A model generated the notes under the pieces. The model did not search any database, was not told the DNA's origin, and saw only the letters and a program-made list of their open reading frames with translations. 64,000 nt of DNA from assembly GCA_964016885.1 (NCBI GenBank), contig OZ024745.1, positions 95,480,001 through 95,544,000 of the forward strand. The letters run 5' to 3'. Both the position numbers and the translations under genes were made by a program. Below are positions 1,872 through 37,286 of the stretch, one piece after another. This DNA is from Eledone cirrhosa. Lineage: Eukaryota. Every line of letters starts with the position of its first letter. Position 1 is the stretch's first letter.

Positions 1872-2060
1872 TATATATATATAGAGAGAGAGAGAGAGGG
1901 AGAGAGACAGACAGAGAGATAAATGGTTCTTTTGTTCTTTATTTATATATCTATATTATATAAGTAAAGACCAAAAGCAATGCTTTTTGAGGGAACTCTT
2001 ACACACAACAGTTACAGATGACAGTGCAAGCAACTTCTATGGACAAGTTAGGCTGTACCA

Positions 2061-4979
2061 GCAATCCTACATTTTATCATGACACCAGCACTTCAACATT
2101 TTATCATGACACCAGCACTTCAACATTTTATCATGACACCAGCACTTCCACATTTTATCAAGACACCAGCACTTCCACATTTTATCAAGACACCAGGAAT
2201 TCTACATTTTATCATAACACCAGCACTTCCACATTTTATCATGACACCAGCACTTCCACAATTTATCATGACACCAGCTCTTCCACATTTTATCAAGACA
2301 CCAGCACTTCCACATTTTATAATGACACCAGCACTTCCACATTTTATCATGACACCAGCACTTCCATATTTTATCATGACACCAGCACTTCCACATTTTA
2401 TCATGACACCAGCACTTCCACATTTTATCATGACACCAGCACTTCCACATTTTATCATGACACCAGCACTTCCACATTTTATCATGACACTAGCACTTCA
2501 ACATTTTATCATGACACCAGCACTTCCACATTTTATCATGACACCAGCACTTCCACATTTTATCATGACACCAGCACTTCAACATTTTATCATGACACCA
2601 GCACTTCCACATTTTATCATGACACCAGCAATTCTACATTTTATCATGACACTAGCACTTCCACATTTTATCATGACACCAGCAATTCTACATTTTATCA
2701 TGACACCAGCACTTCCACATTTTATCATGACACCTGCACTTCCACATTTTATCATGACACCAGCACTTCCACATTTTATCATGACACCAGCACTTCAACA
2801 TTTTATCATGACACCAGCACTTCCACATTTTATCATGACACCAGCACTTCAACATTTTATCATGACACCAGCACTTCCACATTTTATCATGACACCAGCA
2901 ATTCTACATTTTATCATGACACTAGCACTTCCACATTTTATCATGACACCAGCAATTCTACATTTTATCATGACACCAGCACTTCCACATTTTATCATGA
3001 CACCTGCACTTCCACATTTTATCATGTCACCAGCACTTCCACATTTTATCATGACACCAGCACTTCCACATTTTATCATGACACCACCACTTCCACATTT
3101 TATCATGATACCAGCACTTCAACATTTTATCATGACACCAGCACTTCCACATTTTATCATGACACCAGCACTTCAACATTTTATCATGACACCAGCAATT
3201 CTACATTTTATCGTGACACCAGCACTTCCACATTTTATCATGACACCAGAACTTCCACATTTTATCATGACACCAGCAATTCTACATTTCATCATGACAC
3301 CAGCACTTCAACATTTTATCATGACACCAGCACTTCCACATTTTATTATGACACCAGCAATTCAACATTTTATCATGACACCAGCACTTCCACATTTTAT
3401 CATGACACCAGCACTTCCACATTTTATCATGACACCAGCACTTCCACATTTTATCATGACACCAGCAATTCTACATTTTATCATGACACTAGCACTTCAA
3501 CATTTTATCATGACACCAGCACTTCCACATTTTATCATGACACCAGCACTTCCACATTTTATCATGACACCAGCAATTCTACATTTTATCATGACACCAG
3601 CACTTCAACATTTTATCATGACACCAGCACTTCCACATTTTATCATGACACCAGCAATTCTACATTTTATCATGACACTAGCACTTCCACATTTTATCAT
3701 GACACCAGCAATTCTACATTTTATCATGACACCAGCACTTCCACATTTTATCATGACACCTGCACTTCCACATTTTATCATGACACCAGCACTTCCACAT
3801 TTTATCATGACACCAGCACTTCCACATTTTATCATGACACCACCACTTCCACATTTTATCATGATACCAGCACTTCAACATTTTATCATGACACCAGCAC
3901 TTCCACATTTTATCATGACACCAGCACTTCAACATTTTATCATGACACCAGCAATTCTACATTTTATCATGACACCAGCACTTCCACATTTTATCATGAC
4001 ACCAGAACTTCCACATTTTATCATGACACCAGCAATTCTACATTTTATCATGACACCAGCACTTCAACATTTTATCATGACACCAGCACTTCCACATTTT
4101 ATTATGACACCAGCAATTCAACATTTTATCATGACACCAGCACTTCCACACTTTATCATGACACCAGCACTTCAACACTTCATCATGACACAAGCACTTC
4201 AACATTTTATCATGACACCAGCACTTCCACATGTTATCATAACACCAGCACTTCCACATTTTATCATGACACCAACACTTCCACATTTTATCATGACACC
4301 AGCTGTTCCACATTTTATCATGACACCAGCTGTTCCACATTTTATCATGACACCAGCACTTCCACATTTTATCATGACACCAGAACTTCCACATTTTAAC
4401 ATGACACCAGCAATTCTACATTTTATCATGACACCAGCACTTCCACATTTTATCATGACACCAGCACTTCAACATTTTATCATGACACCAGCACTTCCAC
4501 ATTTTATCATGACACCAGCACTTCAACATTTTATCATGTCACCAGCACTTCCACATTTTATCATGATACCAGCACTTCCACATTTTATCATGACACCAGC
4601 ACTTCCACATTTTACCATAACACCAGCACTTCCACATTTTATCATGACACCAGCACTTCAACATTTTATCATGATACCAGCACTTCAACATTTTATCATG
4701 ACACCAGCTCTTCCACATTTTATCATGACACCAGCAATTCTACATTTTATCATGACACCAGCACTTCCACATTTTATCATGACACCAGCACTTCCACATT
4801 TTATCATGACACCAGCACTTCCACATTTTATCATGACACCAGCACTTCCACATTTTATCATGACACCAGCACTTCCACATTTTATCATGACACCAGCACT
4901 TCCACATTTTATCATGAGACCAGCTCTTTCACATTTTATCATGACACCAGCACTTCCACATTTTATCATGAGTGCAGCT
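2061..4979. repeat. 27-bp minisatellite array 1 (about 108 units, consensus ACATTTTATCATGACACCAGCACTTCC)
   Basis: Direct reading; constant 27-bp period with recurring variant units and no spacers. Confidence 0.98.
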
Positions 4980-5057
4980 CTTTTTGAGGGAACTCTTACA
5001 CACAACAGTTACAGATGACAGTGCAAGCAACTTCTATGGACAAGTTAGGCTGTACCA

Positions 5058-7450
5058 GCAATCCTACATTTTATCATGACACCAGCACTTCAACATTTTA
5101 TCATGACACCAGCACTTCCACATTTTATCAAGACACCAGCACTTCCACATTTTATCAAGACACCAGGAATTCTACATTTTATCATAACACCAGCACTTCC
5201 ACATTTTATCATGACACCGGGCACTTCCACAATTTATCATGACACCAGCTCTTCCACATTTTATCAAGACACCAGCACTTCCACATTTTATAATGACACC
5301 AGCACTTCCACATTTTATCATGACACCAGCACTTCCATATTTTATCATGACACCAGCACTTCCACATTTTATCATGACACCAGCACTTCCACATTTTATC
5401 ATGACACCAGCACTTCCACATTTTATCATGACACCAGCACTTCCACATTTTATCATGACACTAGCACTTCAACATTTTATCATGACACCAGCACTTCCAC
5501 ATTTTATCATGACACCAGCACTTCCACATTTTATCATGACACCAGCACTTCAACATTTTATCATGACACCAGCACTTCCACATTTTATCATGACACCAGC
5601 AATTCTACATTTTATCATGACACTAGCACTTCCACATTTTATCATGACACCAGCAATTCTACATTTTATCATGACACCAGCACTTCCACATTTTATCATG
5701 ACACCTGCACTTCCACATTTTATCATGACACCAGCACTTCCACATTTTATCATGACACCAGCACTTCAACATTTTATCATGACACCAGCACTTCCACATT
5801 TTATCATGACACCAGCACTTCAACATTTTATCATGACACCAGCACTTCCACATTTTATCATGACACCAGCAATTCTACATTTTATCATGACACTAGCACT
5901 TCCACATTTTATCATGACACCAGCAATTCTACATTTTATCATGACACCAGCACTTCCACATTTTATCATGACACCTGCACTTCCACATTTTATCATGTCA
6001 CCAGCACTTCCACATTTTATCATGACACCAGCACTTCCACATTTTATCATGACACCACCACTTCCACATTTTATCATGATACCAGCACTTCAACATTTTA
6101 TCATGACACCAGCACTTCCACATTTTATCATGACACCAGCACTTCAACATTTTATCATGACACCAGCAATTCTACATTTTATCGTGACACCAGCACTTCC
6201 ACATTTTATCATGACACCAGAACTTCCACATTTTATCATGACACCAGCAATTCTACATTTCATCATGACACCAGCACTTCAACATTTTATCATGACACCA
6301 GCACTTCCACATTTTATTATGACACCAGCAATTCAACATTTTATCATGACACCAGCACTTCCACATTTTATCATGACACCAGCACTTCCACATTTTATCA
6401 TGACACCAGCACTTCCACATTTTATCATGACACCAGCAATTCTACATTTTATCATGACACTAGCACTTCAACATTTTATCATGACACCAGCACTTCCACA
6501 TTTTATCATGACACCAGCACTTCCACATTTTATCATGACACCAGCAATTCTACATTTTATCATGACACCAGCACTTCCACATTTTATCATGACACCAGCA
6601 CTTCCACATTTTATCATGACACCAGCAATTCTACATTTTATCATGACACTAGCACTTCCACATTTTATCATGACACCAGCACTTCCACATGTTATCATAA
6701 CACCAGCACTTCCACATTTTATCATGACACCAACACTTCCACATTTTATCATGACACCAGCTGTTCCACATTTTATCATGACACCAGCTGTTCCACATTT
6801 TATCATGACACCAGCACTTCCACATTTTATCATGACACCAGAACTTCCACATTTTAACATGACACCAGCAATTCTACATTTTATCATGACACCAGCACTT
6901 CCACATTTTATCATGACACCAGCACTTCAACATTTTATCATGACACCAGCACTTCCACATTTTATCATGACACCAGCACTTCAACATTTTATCATGTCAC
7001 CAGCACTTCCACATTTTATCATGATACCAGCACTTCCACATTTTATCATGACACCAGCACTTCCACATTTTACCATAACACCAGCACTTCCACATTTTAT
7101 CATGACACCAGCACTTCAACATTTTATCATGATACCAGCACTTCAACATTTTATCATGACACCAGCTCTTCCACATTTTATCATGACACCAGCAATTCTA
7201 CATTTTATCATGACACCAGCACTTCCACATTTTATCATGACACCAGCACTTCCACATTTTATCATGACACCAGCACTTCCACATTTTATCATGACACCAG
7301 CACTTCCACATTTTATCATGACACCAGCACTTCCACATTTTATCATGACACCAGCACTTCCACATTTTATCATGAGACCAGCTCTTTCACATTTTATCAT
7401 GACACCAGCACTTCCACATTTTATCATGAGTGCAGCTCTTCCATATTTTA
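5058..7450. repeat. 27-bp minisatellite array 2 (about 88 units), tandem duplicate of array 1 including its flank
   Basis: Same unique flank (CTTTTTGAGGGAACTCTTACAC...) at 1983 and 4980, and the same order of variant units. Confidence 0.97.
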
Positions 7451-9194
7451 TTCTTTTTTCCCAGGACTATGGCCCTCTATACTCTATTCCACTGCCTATA
7501 TTTCCTACAAAAGTCAAGATGGGGCTGCTAAACTTCTCTTTTCTTTTTCCCTTTCATTAAATAATAAAAAAAAAAATCCCTATGATTTAAATTAAGACAA
7601 TCAACTGGGGCAATTATGATTGATTTTATTTTTACCAATAAAATATATCAATTAAGTAGATATCATGAAAATATGTTGCTTATTCATTTTCTAATTCATA
7701 CATTTTAAAGAGTGAAGGAGGATTGTTCAGGGAAATTTGTTGCTGCATAGTAGAGTTCAGGTGACTAATTAAAAACTTTCTCTTGTTATCTTCTTCTCAC
7801 TTATCTATGGCAGTATAATTTGGTTTCTTCTAAAAATATGAGAAAGTATATATTTCATTGTGACAGAATAATGCACTTCACTGTAATTTTTTGATAATTT
7901 TAACTGATAAACATAGATTTTCACCCTCACTGTAAAAAATATGTTGCATGATTACAGCATAGGTTACCACTTCTAAGATATCTCTTTGCACACAGAGAGA
8001 GAGAGAGGGAGATTAAAAAAAAAATTGGGAATCTTTGTTTTCCACAGCAATGCTAAAATTGTAGAAACAAATCAATCTGATCCCACTTTTTCTATATTAT
8101 AGTGTGACCATTTTGGTTTTCAGAATAGTTACACCATATCCCTGCATGTTGTAAATACCAACCTAGTGTTGGCACCAGGAAGGACATTCTAGTTATAAAA
8201 CATTGCTTCCAAAAACCTCACCTAACTGATGCCAGCATAATGATGATACACAAATACACAAACAACTGGCTTCTGTATAGTTTTCGTTGAGCAAATTTGA
8301 CTCATAAGGCATTGGTGAAATTAAAGCTATATTAAAAAAATCCTTTTCCAAGATGCTGTACCATGGGAATAAAACTGAAACCACATGATTGCAAAAAAAA
8401 ACCTTGACACATGGTTGCAAAAAGAACTTGGAAACAGCCAAACCTAGACCTATGTGGAATCATCTAATACATTTTGACATTGAAAGATAGAACTATATAG
8501 TAATCTAAAGAAATTGTGAAGAGAATTTAAGAATATTGTCTGGTTTAAACAAGTATTTTATCTGTAAAATCTTCTAAACTATTTCCTGATGTAGCTTTCT
8601 ATTTTAGTGTTTTAGTTACTTAAGTAGTAGGAGATAGTCAAAGATATATAGATTGAATTGCAGCTTGCCAAGTCAGGGTTAATGTTTCTTGTGCTGTCAC
8701 TAAAACATATGACTATGTGAATGTGACTATGATACTTTTTTAAATTTCTTGTTAGCTCAAGAATATATATATTGGTATTTTACATAGGAAAATCTAACAG
8801 TTGTAAGCACTAATTGGTAACTTTGTTAGCTTTTAGGGATGTTTATACATTCTATAAAACTGCTACACCCAAGAATCAAAACTAATTAGACAATTTGATT
8901 CCTAAATATCTTTGCATCTATTCATGTGGTTGTGTTGACTAGATGACCAAGTAGATAAGTTAATTAGCGACCCCAAGAGTTCTGGGTTTATAAACACAGC
9001 AGATGTAAATATGTGTAAGAATCTTCATTGTACATGTCTCAATTTACCCACTATCTATAATAGATTCTAAAGTTATGAAAATGTTACTTATGACAAACTG
9101 ATGCCTTTTCTTTCATCTATATTAAAATATAGAATTAGTAAAGAATTTAAATATTTCAAGGATTTGAATATATTTACATTTATTTTATATATCC

Positions 9195-11807: not shown

Positions 11808-11896
11808 CACCATCTTGTAGATAGCATCTACAATATCTAGAAGTTCCTCCCGCGTTATGAAGCCATCACTGTCAAGATCATAAAGACGGAAAGCCC
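11808..11896 (-). CDS. NCS1: NCS-1/frequenin exon, EF-hand 3 ((W)[29 protein letters not shown])
   Basis: 89 nt, acceptor aattacag, donor gtgcgt. Completes the split TGG codon; canonical EF loop [12 protein letters not shown]. Confidence 0.96.
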
Positions 11897-13570: not shown

Positions 13571-13720
13571 ATATTCATTTTATTAAGGCTGAACAATGAG
13601 TTTTGTTACTCTGGAGTTTTGCTAACTCCAGAGTAACAAGACTCACTATTCAGCCTTAATAAAATGAATATTAAAACTCTACTTTAGTATTGAGTACTCC
13701 TTTCTCCCAGCTGTCAACCA
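13571..13720 (+). repeat. Short palindrome (about 50-bp arms) with a half-hammerhead and an AGTATTGAGTACT tail; Penelope-like end
   Basis: ATATTCATTTTATTAAGGCTGAA...TACTCTGGAGTTTT GC TAACTCCAGAGTA...TTCAGCCTTAATAAAATGAATAT, flanked by TA/TG repeats. Confidence 0.75.
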
Positions 13721-13961
13721 TATATGGATATATATATATATATATTATATATAGAGTTATAAACTCAAATAGTCTTTTACAATTAACTCAAAGAAAGGAA
13801 TATATATGATAGGGATAAACACTGATACAAGTATACATGTGTTTGCATTGCAAATGACCAAGTTAGCTAGGTTGAAAAATACTAATGAAAATAATACGAT
13901 TTGCATGTCTCGATTTAAAATAATAAATCAATAAAAACAAACCTATATTAGCAAAAGCTCT

Positions 13962-14051
13962 GATACCTGGACAAATTTAAATTTTAAATTTCAAATTTGT
14001 TTCGCAACAATTAAGTGAAAGTTCCTATTCCTGTGCTCTTCTGCAGGTATC
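13962..14051 (-). ncRNA. Type I hammerhead ribozyme-like fold with U4-to-A core variant, sense to NCS-1 pre-mRNA
   Basis: GATACCTG-CAGAAGA-GCAC...TTGC-GAAA-CAAATTTGAA...TTTAAATTT-GTC-CAGGTATC: perfect 8-bp stem I, G-C closed stem II, about 11-bp stem III, GUC triplet. Confidence 0.6.
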
Positions 14052-14453
14052 CAGAAATTGGTAAGTCTCACTTCAAAATACTAATGAAGACTAGGAGATG
14101 TGTTTTTTAATGCACATGTGTCACAGTGTCTAGCGCGTCCTATACTCGTGCCGCTAAAAATAGCAGCCGGTTTTATCAGTGTTTATCCCTATCATATATT
14201 CATTTGTATTACACGGCTCAGAAATATTCCTTTCTTTGAGCTAATTAATTGTAAAAGACTATTTGAGTTTATAACTCTCTATATATAATATTCTCGGCTC
14301 CATCCATTGAGCTAATTTTTAGTCCCACAAAACCGGCTGCTATTTTTAGTGGCACAAGTATGGGACGTGCTAGACACTGTGACACGTGTGCGTTAAAAAA
14401 CACATCTCTCCCAGTCTTCATTAGTATTTTGAAGTGAAACTTACCAATTTCTG

Positions 14454-14543
14454 GATACCTGCAGAAGAGCACAGGAATAGGAACTTTCACTTAATTGTTG
14501 CGAAACAAATTTGAAATTTAAAATTTAAATTTGTCCATGTATC
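14454..14543 (+). ncRNA. Type I hammerhead-like fold, inverted copy
   Basis: Same motif as 13962-14051 with one stem I mismatch (CATGTATC). Confidence 0.55.
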
Positions 14544-14708
14544 ACAGCTTTTGCCAATATAGGTTTGTTTTTATTGATTTATTATTTTAAATCGAGACAG
14601 GCAAAGCGTATTATTTTAATTAGTATTTTTCAATCTAGCTAACTTGGTCATTTGCAATACGAACACATGTATACTTGTATCAGTGTTTATCCCTATCATA
14701 TATTCATT

Positions 14709-14744
<36 letters not shown>

Positions 14745-18163: not shown

Positions 18164-20900
18164 TCTATACTATAAAGCTGACGGCCGTATGTAAGTAACA
18201 AACTTTCCGCGAAGCGACTGGACCAAACAGCACCATAGATGTAACTTTTTCCAAGTAAGAAAGTGAGGGTATTTTTGTCTACTGAATTTTGTTAAAAGAT
18301 TAAAGACATTATTTAAATATTCATTTCTTTAAAATTTTCAAATGTCAACACTTCCAGTTATATGACATTCCTAACGTCTTCACGAACCAAAGTATCGTCT
18401 TCCTGTTTTCTTTTGGTTGCAACGTTTTTCGAAATATTTACTTCTGCGTTCACAGATTGATTTCTTTAGTTTAAGAAGATTCCATTAAGGGTGAAAGCAG
18501 CGATTCTTTGCTTAAACTTTAATCTGTTATTTTGATATATATATATATATATATATAGTTATATATTTGTGTACAGATATTTTTGCATACATAAAAACAA
18601 AATATAAACAAACGTATTTATTTCACGAAAGCACAGACGGCTTATTGTCATTGTTACTGCTGATATGCCACCCAAAAAGTCCTAGCCTGGCCGCAAGATC
18701 AGATTTTCCAGAAGAAAATATGTTACTAGAGCAACAGAGAGACTAAGCTTCGCGATTACCATCAACAAAGCTCAGGGTCAAACCCTAAAAGTGGCTGGCC
18801 TTCATCTGGGAAAACCATGGTCAATTGTATGTAGGATGCTCTAGGGTGAGCTAAGGAAGAGAGAGAGGAAGGAGAGAAGGAGAAAAGAAACCTATCTGCA
18901 GGTTCATAGCAAGCTTACTGGCGCTTTAGTATGGTATTCAATTCTCATATCGTTTTTGATTGATTCATATGTTTTAAACATTAGATAACGATTGCTGATG
19001 TATATTGTACGACAGAATTAGCTGAAAAATATTTTGAATGAACAAATAAAAGAGATATAAAAGAGAGATGTTGGTTGGTTGGTTCCTTCCCGTATCACAC
19101 GAAAAAAACGAAAAGTGACAATCGGAAAGTATGTACAGGATTGGAATAAGAGTATCTCCAGGAAAGTTTATTGATACTAATTTTATAACACCAAAGAAGA
19201 AGAAAGACATACCACGTATGCTAACCAGCCTGACTGCTATTTCTAGCAGGTTGGGAATGAACCATAAGGGATTCTCTCTGCGAGTTCGTTGTCAGTGATG
19301 ATCGTGTTTCGCGGCCTATATCTCCGATTCCAACGGTGGATTACACACACACACACACACGCACATGCACACACACGAACACTCACACAGGCACACACAC
19401 ACACATATACACACACATATATATATACAAACACACACACATATATATACACAAACACTCATAGCTGAATCAATGGCTGAACTAGAGAAGAAATTCCAAA
19501 CTTGGAAGCATGGCCTAGAATCAAAAGGCCTTAAAATTAACTTGTCTAAGACTAAAAAAAGTTCTAGTATGTAGGAAGGAAAATAGGGCACTGGTCCCCT
19601 CTGGGAAATGGCCATGCTCAGTGTGTAGGAAAGGAGTAGGCAGAAACTCCATTTTATGTCCCAAATGCAAAGTATGGGTGCATAAAAGATGTAGTGGGAT
19701 CACAGGTAAACTAACCAAGAACATAGCTTTTATATGTGGCCGGTGCTCAGGTGCAATAAGTAGTAGCAAGTGCCCACAGGATACTAGCTCATTCCATTGC
19801 ACAGATGGTTCTATAGAAATAGTGCACACCTGGGTGGCAAAATCACCAGTGGTGGTGGGTGCTCTGAAAGTACAGTAGCTCGTGTCAGAACGGGATGGAA
19901 AAAGTTCAGAGAGCTTATACCACTGTTGGCCGCTAAAGGTTTCTCTCTAAAAATGAAAGGCAGACTGTATGATGCCTGCATACAAGCAGCTATGTTACAT
20001 GGCAGTGAGACATGGGAATTGTGTGCAGAGGATCTGCACAGACTGGAGAGGAATGAAGCTTGCATGCTCCGTTGGATGTGTAATAGTAATATACACGAAC
20101 GGCAAAGCATAAACGAACTAAGTGAGAAATTAGGAATAAGAGGGATCAGATGCTGTTTACTCGAGAGAAGACTACGTTGGTATGGTCACGTGATGCGCAT
20201 GAAAGACGACAGCTGCATAAAAAAGTGCAGGGCGATCAAAATAGATGGAAGCTACGGAGTAGGTAGACCCAGAAAAACCTGGGACGATTTGATAAATTCT
20301 GATCTTACACACTTACACCTCTCCAAGACAATGTCACTGGACTGAGATCTTTGGCGCTACACAGTAATCCAGAAGACCTGCCTTGCCTAAGTACAAAGCG
20401 AAACCTACAGTCAGTAGGCACCTCCTAACCACAATACACCCCCATCCCACTACCCTTACCCCCACCCCCATCTACACCTAAAGTTACATTGGTGCCACAA
20501 CATCCAGTCCTAAATAAATGAGGTTGTGTAGGCGTCACGACAAAAAAAACAAAACACACACAGTCCACGCTGTAATGTGGCCATGTAGGTGACACGGTAA
20601 AAACCTCCCAACCCACACTGTAAACGTGGTTGGTGTTAGGAAGGGTATCAAGCCATAGAAAACCCGCCAGACAGTCCTATACGAGCAAGACAACCAATCT
20701 TGCCTCATGTGGGACAATTCCCCTCTAAACCCATGCTAGCGTGGAAGATAGACGTTAAACGATGATGATGATGATGACACACAAACATACACACACACAC
20801 ACACTGTAAACAAGACAATGCATTCAATACAGACGTTTTCTCTTCTGCCAGTCTTCTCTTATCATTTGTTAACCTTGGCAAAGCTGGGTACCTCAGCTAG
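18164..20900 (+). mobile_element. Non-autonomous Helitron relic with nested LINE
   Basis: 5' A|TCTATACTATAAAG; 3' CCTTGGCAAAGCTGGGTACCTCAGCTAG|T (decayed hairpin plus CTAG); internal PIF1-helicase motif RLSFAITINKAQGQTLKVAGLHLGK...HGQLYVGCSRVS at about 18740-18852. Confidence 0.8.
19458..20777 (+). mobile_element. 5'-truncated RTE LINE with PHD-like finger, (GAT)n tail
   Basis: LIAESMAELEKKFQTWKHGLESKGLKINLSKTK, C4HC3 motif, ...RLYDACIQAAMLHGSETW...RRLRWYGHVMR...GRPRKTW; possible TSD ACACAAACA (19449-19457 and 20779-20787). Confidence 0.92.
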
Positions 20901-24632: not shown

Positions 24633-24711
24633 ACCGTAACTTTTCATCCACATTACCTCGGGAGGTTACTGATAAGGCTTGTAGAAATTCGTCAAATTCT
24701 ATGTAACCATC
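24633..24711 (-). CDS. NCS1: NCS-1/frequenin exon, EF-hand 2 loop ([26 protein letters not shown] + first base of W)
   Basis: 79 nt, acceptor tccttgcag, donor gtaagt. Continues in frame from the upstream exon to give the loop [12 protein letters not shown]; matches NCS-1 [27 protein letters not shown]. Confidence 0.96.
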
Positions 24712-36905: not shown

Positions 36906-37286
36906 TTATTATATATATATATATATATTTATTACTAGAACAGACTAAAGTTTAAGCAAAAACATTTCTGCTTTCACCCCATAAGGAATCTTCTGAAACT
37001 GAGAAAAACCAATCTGTAGATGCAGATATTTGCTCTACGGGTTTATATATACTTATATATATATATACCGATATATTTATATATATACAATCCTTATCGA
37101 GCCTCTTTGGATTTTGATATTTGTATTTATTATTACTATATATATATTATATAGAAATAACTTCTTCAAGTTGTAGTGCACCTGAGCACTGTACACAATA
37201 ATTTCATTATTATTATTAGGATCAAGACAACAACTGTTTCATTTGACTGTGGATTTTTCTGATCCCCTTCAGAAAACCATCCTTAA

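What the first reader, a model, noticed from the sequence alone, without database searches (positions are those of the whole stretch)
13743..14710. 375-bp inverted repeat carrying paired hammerhead folds with a non-canonical CAGAAGA core
Seen: both arms fold as a type I hammerhead (8-bp stem I GATACCTG/CAGGTATC, G-C closed stem II, GAAA, about 11-bp stem III, GUC), but the CUGANGA box reads CAGAAGA in both. The best copy (13962-14051) is on the NCS-1 sense strand, and the layout is a rearranged A-B-C/B'-A'/C'-B' between TA runs. Known: Penelope-like elements have hammerhead-bearing pseudo-LTRs, often inverted, and non-coding hammerhead retrozymes exist in animals. Inference: a Penelope or retrozyme-type element with either a natural core variant or a pre-duplication inactivating change. 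In the pre-mRNA the ribozyme fold and the long duplex are mutually exclusive.
Basis: partly seen in the sequence, partly recalled or inferred. Interest (0 to 1): 0.75.

Follow-up and report, generated by a model that had tools for sequence, protein, structure and literature searches.

The report
Core-mutated knotted hammerhead in jumping repeat
This is one copy of a small non-coding jumping repeat whose hammerhead-shaped RNA carries A instead of the usual U in its catalytic core in hundreds of copies while the rest of the fold stays conserved, so it likely still cuts itself slowly (untested) and offers a natural series for asking what such ribozymes do for these elements.

Summary
Confirmed: a 375-bp, 95% inverted repeat in an NCS-1 intron; each arm has a type I hammerhead fold with CAGAAGA. 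It is not a local mutation. The arms are one insertion of a ~500-nt non-coding Penelope-like family (partial tandem, inverted truncated copy, two fixed 3' ends, TA targets). A4 is the family state: 660 exact matches against 13 with U4. Related subfamilies carry U4 or C4, and a sister clade keeps U4. Among the A4 subfamilies the other 13 core positions never change and all five stem substitutions keep pairing. The scan had already noted U4A in an unrelated autonomous Hydra-clade element of this genome. I confirmed that family (19,126 matches) and found it shares a GCTC-GAGC hairpin signal at both 3' ends, so U4A likely arose twice, in satellite and probable helper. Best reading: slowed but still selected ribozyme (0.55); main rival: non-cutting protein handle. 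In the pre-mRNA the long duplex is predicted to mask it. No cleavage or RNA data.

The parts
13742..14174 (-). Inverted, 5'-truncated copy of the monomer (about position 42 to the full 3' end, with a ~29-nt deletion), ending in the left TA run
13962..14051 (-). Type I hammerhead fold with CAGAAGA core (14043-14037); predicted cut between 13970 and 13969; on the NCS-1 sense strand
14066..14073 (-). 5' strand of the predicted pseudoknot; pairs with 14020-14013 in loop II (one G-U in this copy)
14171..14287 (+). 5'-truncated head copy (monomer 3' end including the 78-nt tail); tail hairpin GCTC...GAGC at about 14215-14242
14288..14713 (+). Monomer positions 1-426, ending at the shorter of the two fixed 3' ends; start hairpin GCTC...GAGC at 14297-14312
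14454..14543 (+). Second hammerhead fold (core 14462-14468, C17 at 14535), one stem I pair broken
14432..14492 (+). Predicted 8-bp pseudoknot, 14432-14439 with 14485-14492
13728..13745 (.). Left (TA)n target run
14714..14740 (.). Right (TA)n target run
11808..11894 (-). NCS-1 exon downstream of the host intron (upstream exon near 24690)

Best explanation
The locus is one insertion of a ~500-nt non-coding repeat family, likely mobilised by a Penelope-like retrotransposon protein, whose type I hammerhead fold carries a family-wide U4A change, is predicted to be braced by a pseudoknot, and likely still self-cleaves slowly. SHOWN: family, layout, two fixed 3' ends, TA targets, fixation of A4, invariance of the other core letters, paired stem changes, pseudoknot complementarity. 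INFERRED: a TA-targeting Penelope-like protein (probably Hydra clade) binds a GCTC...GAGC hairpin, starts reverse transcription just upstream of either hairpin, primes on nicked (TA)n, and template switching gives the inverted copy. INFERRED: position 4 is the tolerant core position, and the pseudoknot plus strong stems I and III keep enough activity for whatever the element needs; most insertions were copied from uncut or rejoined RNA. At this locus the antisense arm is transcribed first in NCS-1 pre-mRNA, so the ribozyme is predicted to be buried in a 375-bp duplex and not to cut the host RNA.
For: A4 vs U4 exact matches: 360 vs 3 and 300 vs 10. 222 distinct copies fall in 10 groups up to 24% apart; of 15 core positions only 4 and 7 vary. 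Within the six A4 groups 0 of 13 other core positions vary, against 20 of 48 nearby unpaired columns (P = 0.0009) or 43 of 195 pooled (P = 0.04); 22 of 22 pairs hold in each consensus and all five substitutions keep pairing. On 53 copies: 96.4% of cells paired, three pairs with two-sided changes, slid controls 14-46%. Pseudoknot: 8-9 Watson-Crick pairs in 8 of 10 groups and with one G-U in the other two; different letters at the same 14-nt offset in 22 of 25 sister-clade copies; shuffle rates 0.0015 and 0.0075; 20 of 28 in further sister subfamilies. 3' ends: 229 at the monomer end, 106 about 80 nt earlier, 54 elsewhere, of 389 segments. The Hydra-type element L327 has the same hairpin after both of its 3' ends; background 0.2%. 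Perreault 2011 (PMC3088659, passages): natural U4C stays infectious, and tertiary contacts likely offset core changes.
Against: No cleavage or expression data. Roberts 2023 (PMC9901934, passages) found low activity for all single CUGA mutants of one hammerhead. Against the 3' flank alone (23 of 147 columns vary) core invariance is not significant (P = 0.11); groups are related, so these P values are rough. The A3/E groups spread with C4 plus a 37-nt duplication, and some have a weakened stem III, so a damaged ribozyme did not stop amplification. 5' truncations do not pile up at the cut site: 5 of 296 within 8 nt, about 11 expected; the U4 sister family shows none either, 2 of 41. Frangieh 2024 (PMC11167929, main text) found ribozyme mutants did not impair insertion in vitro. 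RNAalifold predicts a rival helix that sequesters the core. No extended homology with the helper beyond the hairpins.
Confidence: 0.55

Rival explanations
1. U4A killed catalysis, and the fold is kept only as a structural handle or spacer for the Penelope protein.
For: Low activity of CUGA single mutants (PMC9901934, passages); cleavage not needed for insertion in vitro (PMC11167929); C4-plus-duplication groups amplified; no truncation pile-up; a 19,126-copy element also spreads with A4. Earlier scan note e1-10330111 reads its family this way.
Against: G5, G8, G12, A13, A14, C17 and the pseudoknot all stay fixed across the A4 groups, more than a simple handle obviously needs. The positions that vary are 7 (free in the consensus) and 4 (a tolerated natural variant is known).
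Confidence: 0.3
2. A4 is a protein-gated core: the helper protein completes or recognises an A4 hammerhead, and the satellite converged on the helper's core.
For: The same CAGAAGA is fixed in two sequence-unrelated families of similar age (2.4-3.5% and 2.4-4.8% divergence) that share the hairpin signal. A Penelope hammerhead cleaved only with its protein (PMC11167929).
Against: The sister clade has the same signal, similar age and keeps U4 (469 U4 matches; 26 non-U matches with a different pattern). The hairpin also appears in published Naiad and coral Hydra sequences, so the helper is not pinned down. Two hits on the most tolerant position need no special cause.
Confidence: 0.1
3. Neutral decay: the fold is a fossil and its apparent conservation is chance, CpG transitions and hairpin-driven template switching.
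For: The stem I double change is a pair of CpG-type transitions; stem III is a short quasi-palindrome; P = 0.11 against the 3' flank.
Against: No pair-breaking change in 22 pairs over eight consensuses; pseudoknot strands conserved inside fast-changing segments.
Confidence: 0.05

Closest known systems
Penelope-like elements, Hydra clade (Craig et al. 2021, PMC8557442; passages, section 11, supplement passages)
   Same: Partial tandems, inverted 5'-truncated copy, optional tail, (TA)n targets, hammerhead near the 3' end; hairpin signal shared with the Hydra-type element L327.
   Different: No ORF; tail about 80 nt rather than 30-40; large stem III and a pseudoknot; A at core position 4 (the listed Hydra-1_Obim core has U).
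Metazoan non-LTR retrozymes (Cervera and de la Pena 2020, PMC7229834; parts 2-3)
   Same: Non-coding tandem repeats with one type I hammerhead per monomer, low GC.
   Different: Monomer about 500 nt against 170-400; mostly one to three copies with inversions; non-canonical core; circular RNA not tested.
Pseudoknotted and core-variant hammerheads (Perreault et al. 2011, PMC3088659; passages)
   Same: Pseudoknot as tertiary contact between the stem I and stem II sides; natural core variants such as U4C and A6C.
   Different: U4A is not mentioned in the passages I read (the Figure 5 image could not be seen); here it is fixed in a genomic family with U, A and C relatives.
U4A hammerhead of the autonomous Hydra-type element in this genome (earlier scan notes; checked)
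   Same: Identical CAGAAGA core, TA targets, two 3' ends, hairpin signal.
   Different: Unrelated stems, no G10.1-C11.1 pair, no such pseudoknot looked for or seen, protein-coding, 19,126 exact matches.

Membership tests
Type I hammerhead ribozyme | Three stems around the core, open stem I | tested here: met
Type I hammerhead ribozyme | CUGANGA box | tested here: not met
   A at position 4 in both arms and in 660 of 673 pattern matches; U4 in related subfamilies
Type I hammerhead ribozyme | GAAA box, A15.1-U16.1, H17, G10.1-C11.1, C3-G8 | tested here: met
   invariant in 10 of 10 group consensuses
Type I hammerhead ribozyme | Tertiary contact between stem I side and loop II | tested here: met
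   pseudoknot complementarity with cross-family covariation; predicted, not probed
Type I hammerhead ribozyme | Site-specific self-cleavage | not testable with these tools
   no assay; no RNA holder listed
Rfam hammerhead families | Match to a curated model | tested here: not met
   none among 16 hits to E = 10
Penelope-like element (non-autonomous) | Partial tandem (pseudo-LTR) and inverted 5'-truncated copy | tested here: met
Penelope-like element (non-autonomous) | Two fixed 3' ends (tail) | tested here: met
   229 and 106 of 389 segment ends; tail about 80 nt
Penelope-like element (non-autonomous) | Terminal similarity to an autonomous partner | tested here: inconclusive
   shared hairpin signal with L327, but only 11-28-nt weak BLAST matches otherwise; another autonomous family gave nothing convincing
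Autonomous Penelope-like element | RT plus GIY-YIG ORF inside the unit | tested here: not met
   head-to-tail ~500-nt monomers with no such ORF
Metazoan non-LTR retrozyme | 170-400-nt tandem monomers with a type I hammerhead | tested here: inconclusive
   tandems present but the monomer is about 500 nt
Metazoan non-LTR retrozyme | Abundant circular RNA | not testable with these tools
   no RNA run listed

The most novel reading that the evidence does not exclude
A Penelope helper and its non-coding satellite converged on the same U4A hammerhead core because the helper's protein switches on, or specifically grips, an A4 core: a protein-gated ribozyme co-evolving with its retrotransposon, visible as a natural U-A-C series on one pseudoknotted scaffold.
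Probability: 0.12. Interest if true: 0.8.

Novelty: new variant of a known kind. Interest (0 to 1): 0.5.

Why it matters
What hammerheads do for Penelope-like elements is open: they are nearly universal, yet cleavage was dispensable in the one in vitro system. This family supplies U4, A4 and C4 versions of one scaffold, each with a record of how far it spread, plus an independent U4A family in the same genome. Measuring their rates would test directly whether catalysis or only the fold is selected. It also shows that searches requiring CUGANGA miss whole families, and adds a long 5'-flank pseudoknot to animal type I hammerheads. For NCS-1 itself the insertion is probably an ordinary intronic repeat forming a long duplex.

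Tried and rejected
Rfam scan: no hammerhead. Alternative register reading the core as CUGCAGA (A6C): rejected, because those letters covary with the 3' arm as stem I. Local pre-duplication mutation: rejected. Truncation pile-up as a sign of cleavage: negative, and uninformative because the U4 control is also flat. A young autonomous element beside locus L013 as helper: only a 22-23-nt AT-rich match on the opposite polarity and no hammerhead found in six fetched stretches. Sequence look-up among earlier scan notes: nothing. Literature: nine searches were counted; none listed a paper that, from title or abstract, describes a natural U4A hammerhead or this family. Ambros and Flores 1998, Nelson and Uhlenbeck 2008, Tang and Breaker 1997 and Lunse 2017 were not held. 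Figure 5 of Perreault 2011 and the single-mutant values of Roberts 2023 could not be seen, so a prior report or a measured U4A rate may exist. The direction of change at position 4 was not tested with a rooted tree.

Full report
Observation. The inverted repeat, both hammerhead folds and the CAGAAGA cores are present as described. The minus-strand copy folds best (z = -2.88); the plus copy has a broken stem I pair. The element lies in an intron of an NCS-1 gene on the minus strand. Rfam does not detect it.

What the element is. A search of the 3.0-Gb genome gave 1,674 candidates, of which 40 were scored. The copies define a ~504-nt non-coding monomer found as head-to-tail partial tandems with inverted 5'-truncated copies, in TA runs. 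Of 389 aligned segments, 229 end at the monomer end, 106 end about 80 nt earlier and 54 end elsewhere; 93 start at the monomer start and 296 are truncated at scattered places. This is the layout Craig et al. describe for Penelope-like elements (PMC8557442, passages), and two fixed 3' ends match the two reverse-transcription starts found by Frangieh et al. (PMC11167929, main text). The window holds an inverted copy (13742-14174), a truncated head (14171-14287) and a monomer ending at the short terminus (14288-14713). The two arms group together in the tree, consistent with one insertion event.

The core change. Exact patterns give 360 A4 vs 3 U4 for the window's subfamily and 300 vs 10 for a second. 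A looser pattern for non-A states gave 74 hits (44 T, 25 C, 5 G by eye; reversed control 3); 3 of the 30 loci examined were unrelated chance hits. From 251 extracted copies, 222 distinct ones fall into ten seeded groups: two U4 groups (4.5-4.6% from consensus), six A4 groups (2.4-4.8%) and two mainly C4 groups with a 37-nt duplication (2.5-3.0%), the extremes 23-24% apart. The U4 and C4 groups were sampled on purpose, so group sizes are not genome proportions. A sister clade with the same ends and a canonical core exists: 469 U4 matches, against 26 non-U matches with a different pattern (5 A, 21 C by eye). A covariance model of the A4/U4 family finds some sister-clade copies at E about 1e-4 to 2e-2 and misses others. 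The other multi-copy hammerhead families that the descriptor caught in my loci carry U4, apart from one C4 copy. U as the ancestral state follows from these outgroups. The order inside the family is not settled: ages overlap, and the tree was midpoint-rooted, so a reversion to U4 in the two U4 groups is not excluded.

Is the fold still selected? Of 15 core positions only 4 and 7 vary among the ten consensuses. Among the six A4 groups, 0 of 13 other core positions vary, against 42% of nearby unpaired columns, 16% of the 3' flank and 22% pooled (P = 0.0009, 0.11, 0.04; rough). All five substitutions in 22 pairs keep pairing, including two double changes. On 53 of the 222 copies (up to 7 per group, duplication groups left out) three pairs show two-sided changes; the shuffle control is weak for related sequences (86 of 500 shuffles reach three pairs), while slid controls fall to 14-46% paired. 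Against this, the C4-plus-duplication groups still spread, and RNAalifold prefers a helix that sequesters the core.

The loop II letters in that rival helix are complementary to a segment ending 14-15 nt before stem I: 8-9 Watson-Crick pairs in eight groups, and 8-9 with one G-U in the other two. The sister clade has a helix of entirely different letters at the same offset in 22 of 25 copies and in 20 of 28 copies of further subfamilies, up to 12-13 pairs. Shuffles reach such helices at rates of 0.0015 and 0.0075. Perreault et al. (PMC3088659, passages) show that pseudoknots raise hammerhead rates by orders of magnitude and suggest tertiary contacts offset core variants such as natural U4C. 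Roberts et al. (PMC9901934, passages) report low activity for CUGA single mutants in one ribozyme. I found no measured U4A rate.

The probable helper and a second U4A. Earlier scan notes pointed to a U4A hammerhead in an autonomous Hydra-clade element of this genome. I checked it: 19,126 exact matches, the first 100 listed all A4; 32 distinct copies in my loci and the window, all A4 by eye. Locus L327 is a repeat-ORF-repeat unit of 3,259 bp whose frame has the RWR, DKT and CxCx5C motifs given for Hydra. Its stems are unrelated to ours, and a hammerhead of the same layout in another family keeps U4, so U4A likely arose twice. Just after each of its two 3' ends lies a GCTC...GAGC hairpin, as in our family and the sister clade; the motif follows a random point in the window 0.2% of the time. 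By eye it also occurs in a published coral Hydra and in Naiad_Obim, so it marks TA-targeting Penelope-like elements more widely and does not prove which one is the helper.

At this locus. In NCS-1 pre-mRNA the antisense arm is made first, and the predicted probability of stem I is 0.000 in all transcript lengths tried. The copy is therefore unlikely to cut the host RNA and would form a long duplex instead. 5' truncations show no pile-up at the cut site in this family or the U4 control, in line with uncut RNA being the main template (PMC11167929).

Verdict. New are a family-wide U4A on a pseudoknotted scaffold with U4 and C4 relatives, and its apparent convergence with a second family. Slow residual cleavage 0.55, non-cutting handle 0.30, protein-gated convergence 0.10, neutral fossil 0.05. 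Papers seen: PMC4209133 parts 1-2 of 4; PMC7229834 parts 2-3 of 6; PMC11167929 abstract and main text; passages of PMC8557442 (plus section 11 and supplement passages), PMC3088659, PMC9901934 (plus supplement legends), PMC7151607, PMC2632901, PMC6155905 and PMC6765202.

Noticed in passing
window 18443-18547 (+) and 36920-37026 (-): Two end-pieces of the 19,126-copy Hydra-type element with its own U4A hammerhead lie in the same NCS-1 gene.
   Followed up: partly
L067, L114-L138, L285-L314: Sister clade of ~450-480-nt monomers with canonical CUGA core, up to three extra letters after A9 and a pseudoknot of up to 12-13 pairs; a good positive control. One of its subfamilies shows a cluster of C4 copies.
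   Followed up: partly
subfamily consensuses: Master sequences differ by up to 24% while copies are only 2.4-4.8% from their own consensus, implying very fast change of the source elements or long-coexisting lineages.
   Followed up: no
L327 junction; supplement of PMC8557442: GCTC...GAGC hairpin after each 3' end in Hydra-type, Naiad-type and satellite elements; candidate general signal for reverse-transcription start in TA-targeting Penelope-like elements.
   Followed up: partly
L013:2026-2730; L249-L284: A very young autonomous Penelope-like family (150 of 150 scored matches 98-100% identical, many 784-aa open frames) with no hammerhead found in six fetched stretches.
   Followed up: partly
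window 13571-13671: Near-perfect hairpin with 48-bp arms next to the element; probably another small repeat.
   Followed up: no
window about 2000-7600: Long C-rich tandem minisatellite with strong GC skew.
   Followed up: no
many loci: At least six other canonical type I hammerhead families occur within about 1 Mb of sampled flanks.
   Followed up: no
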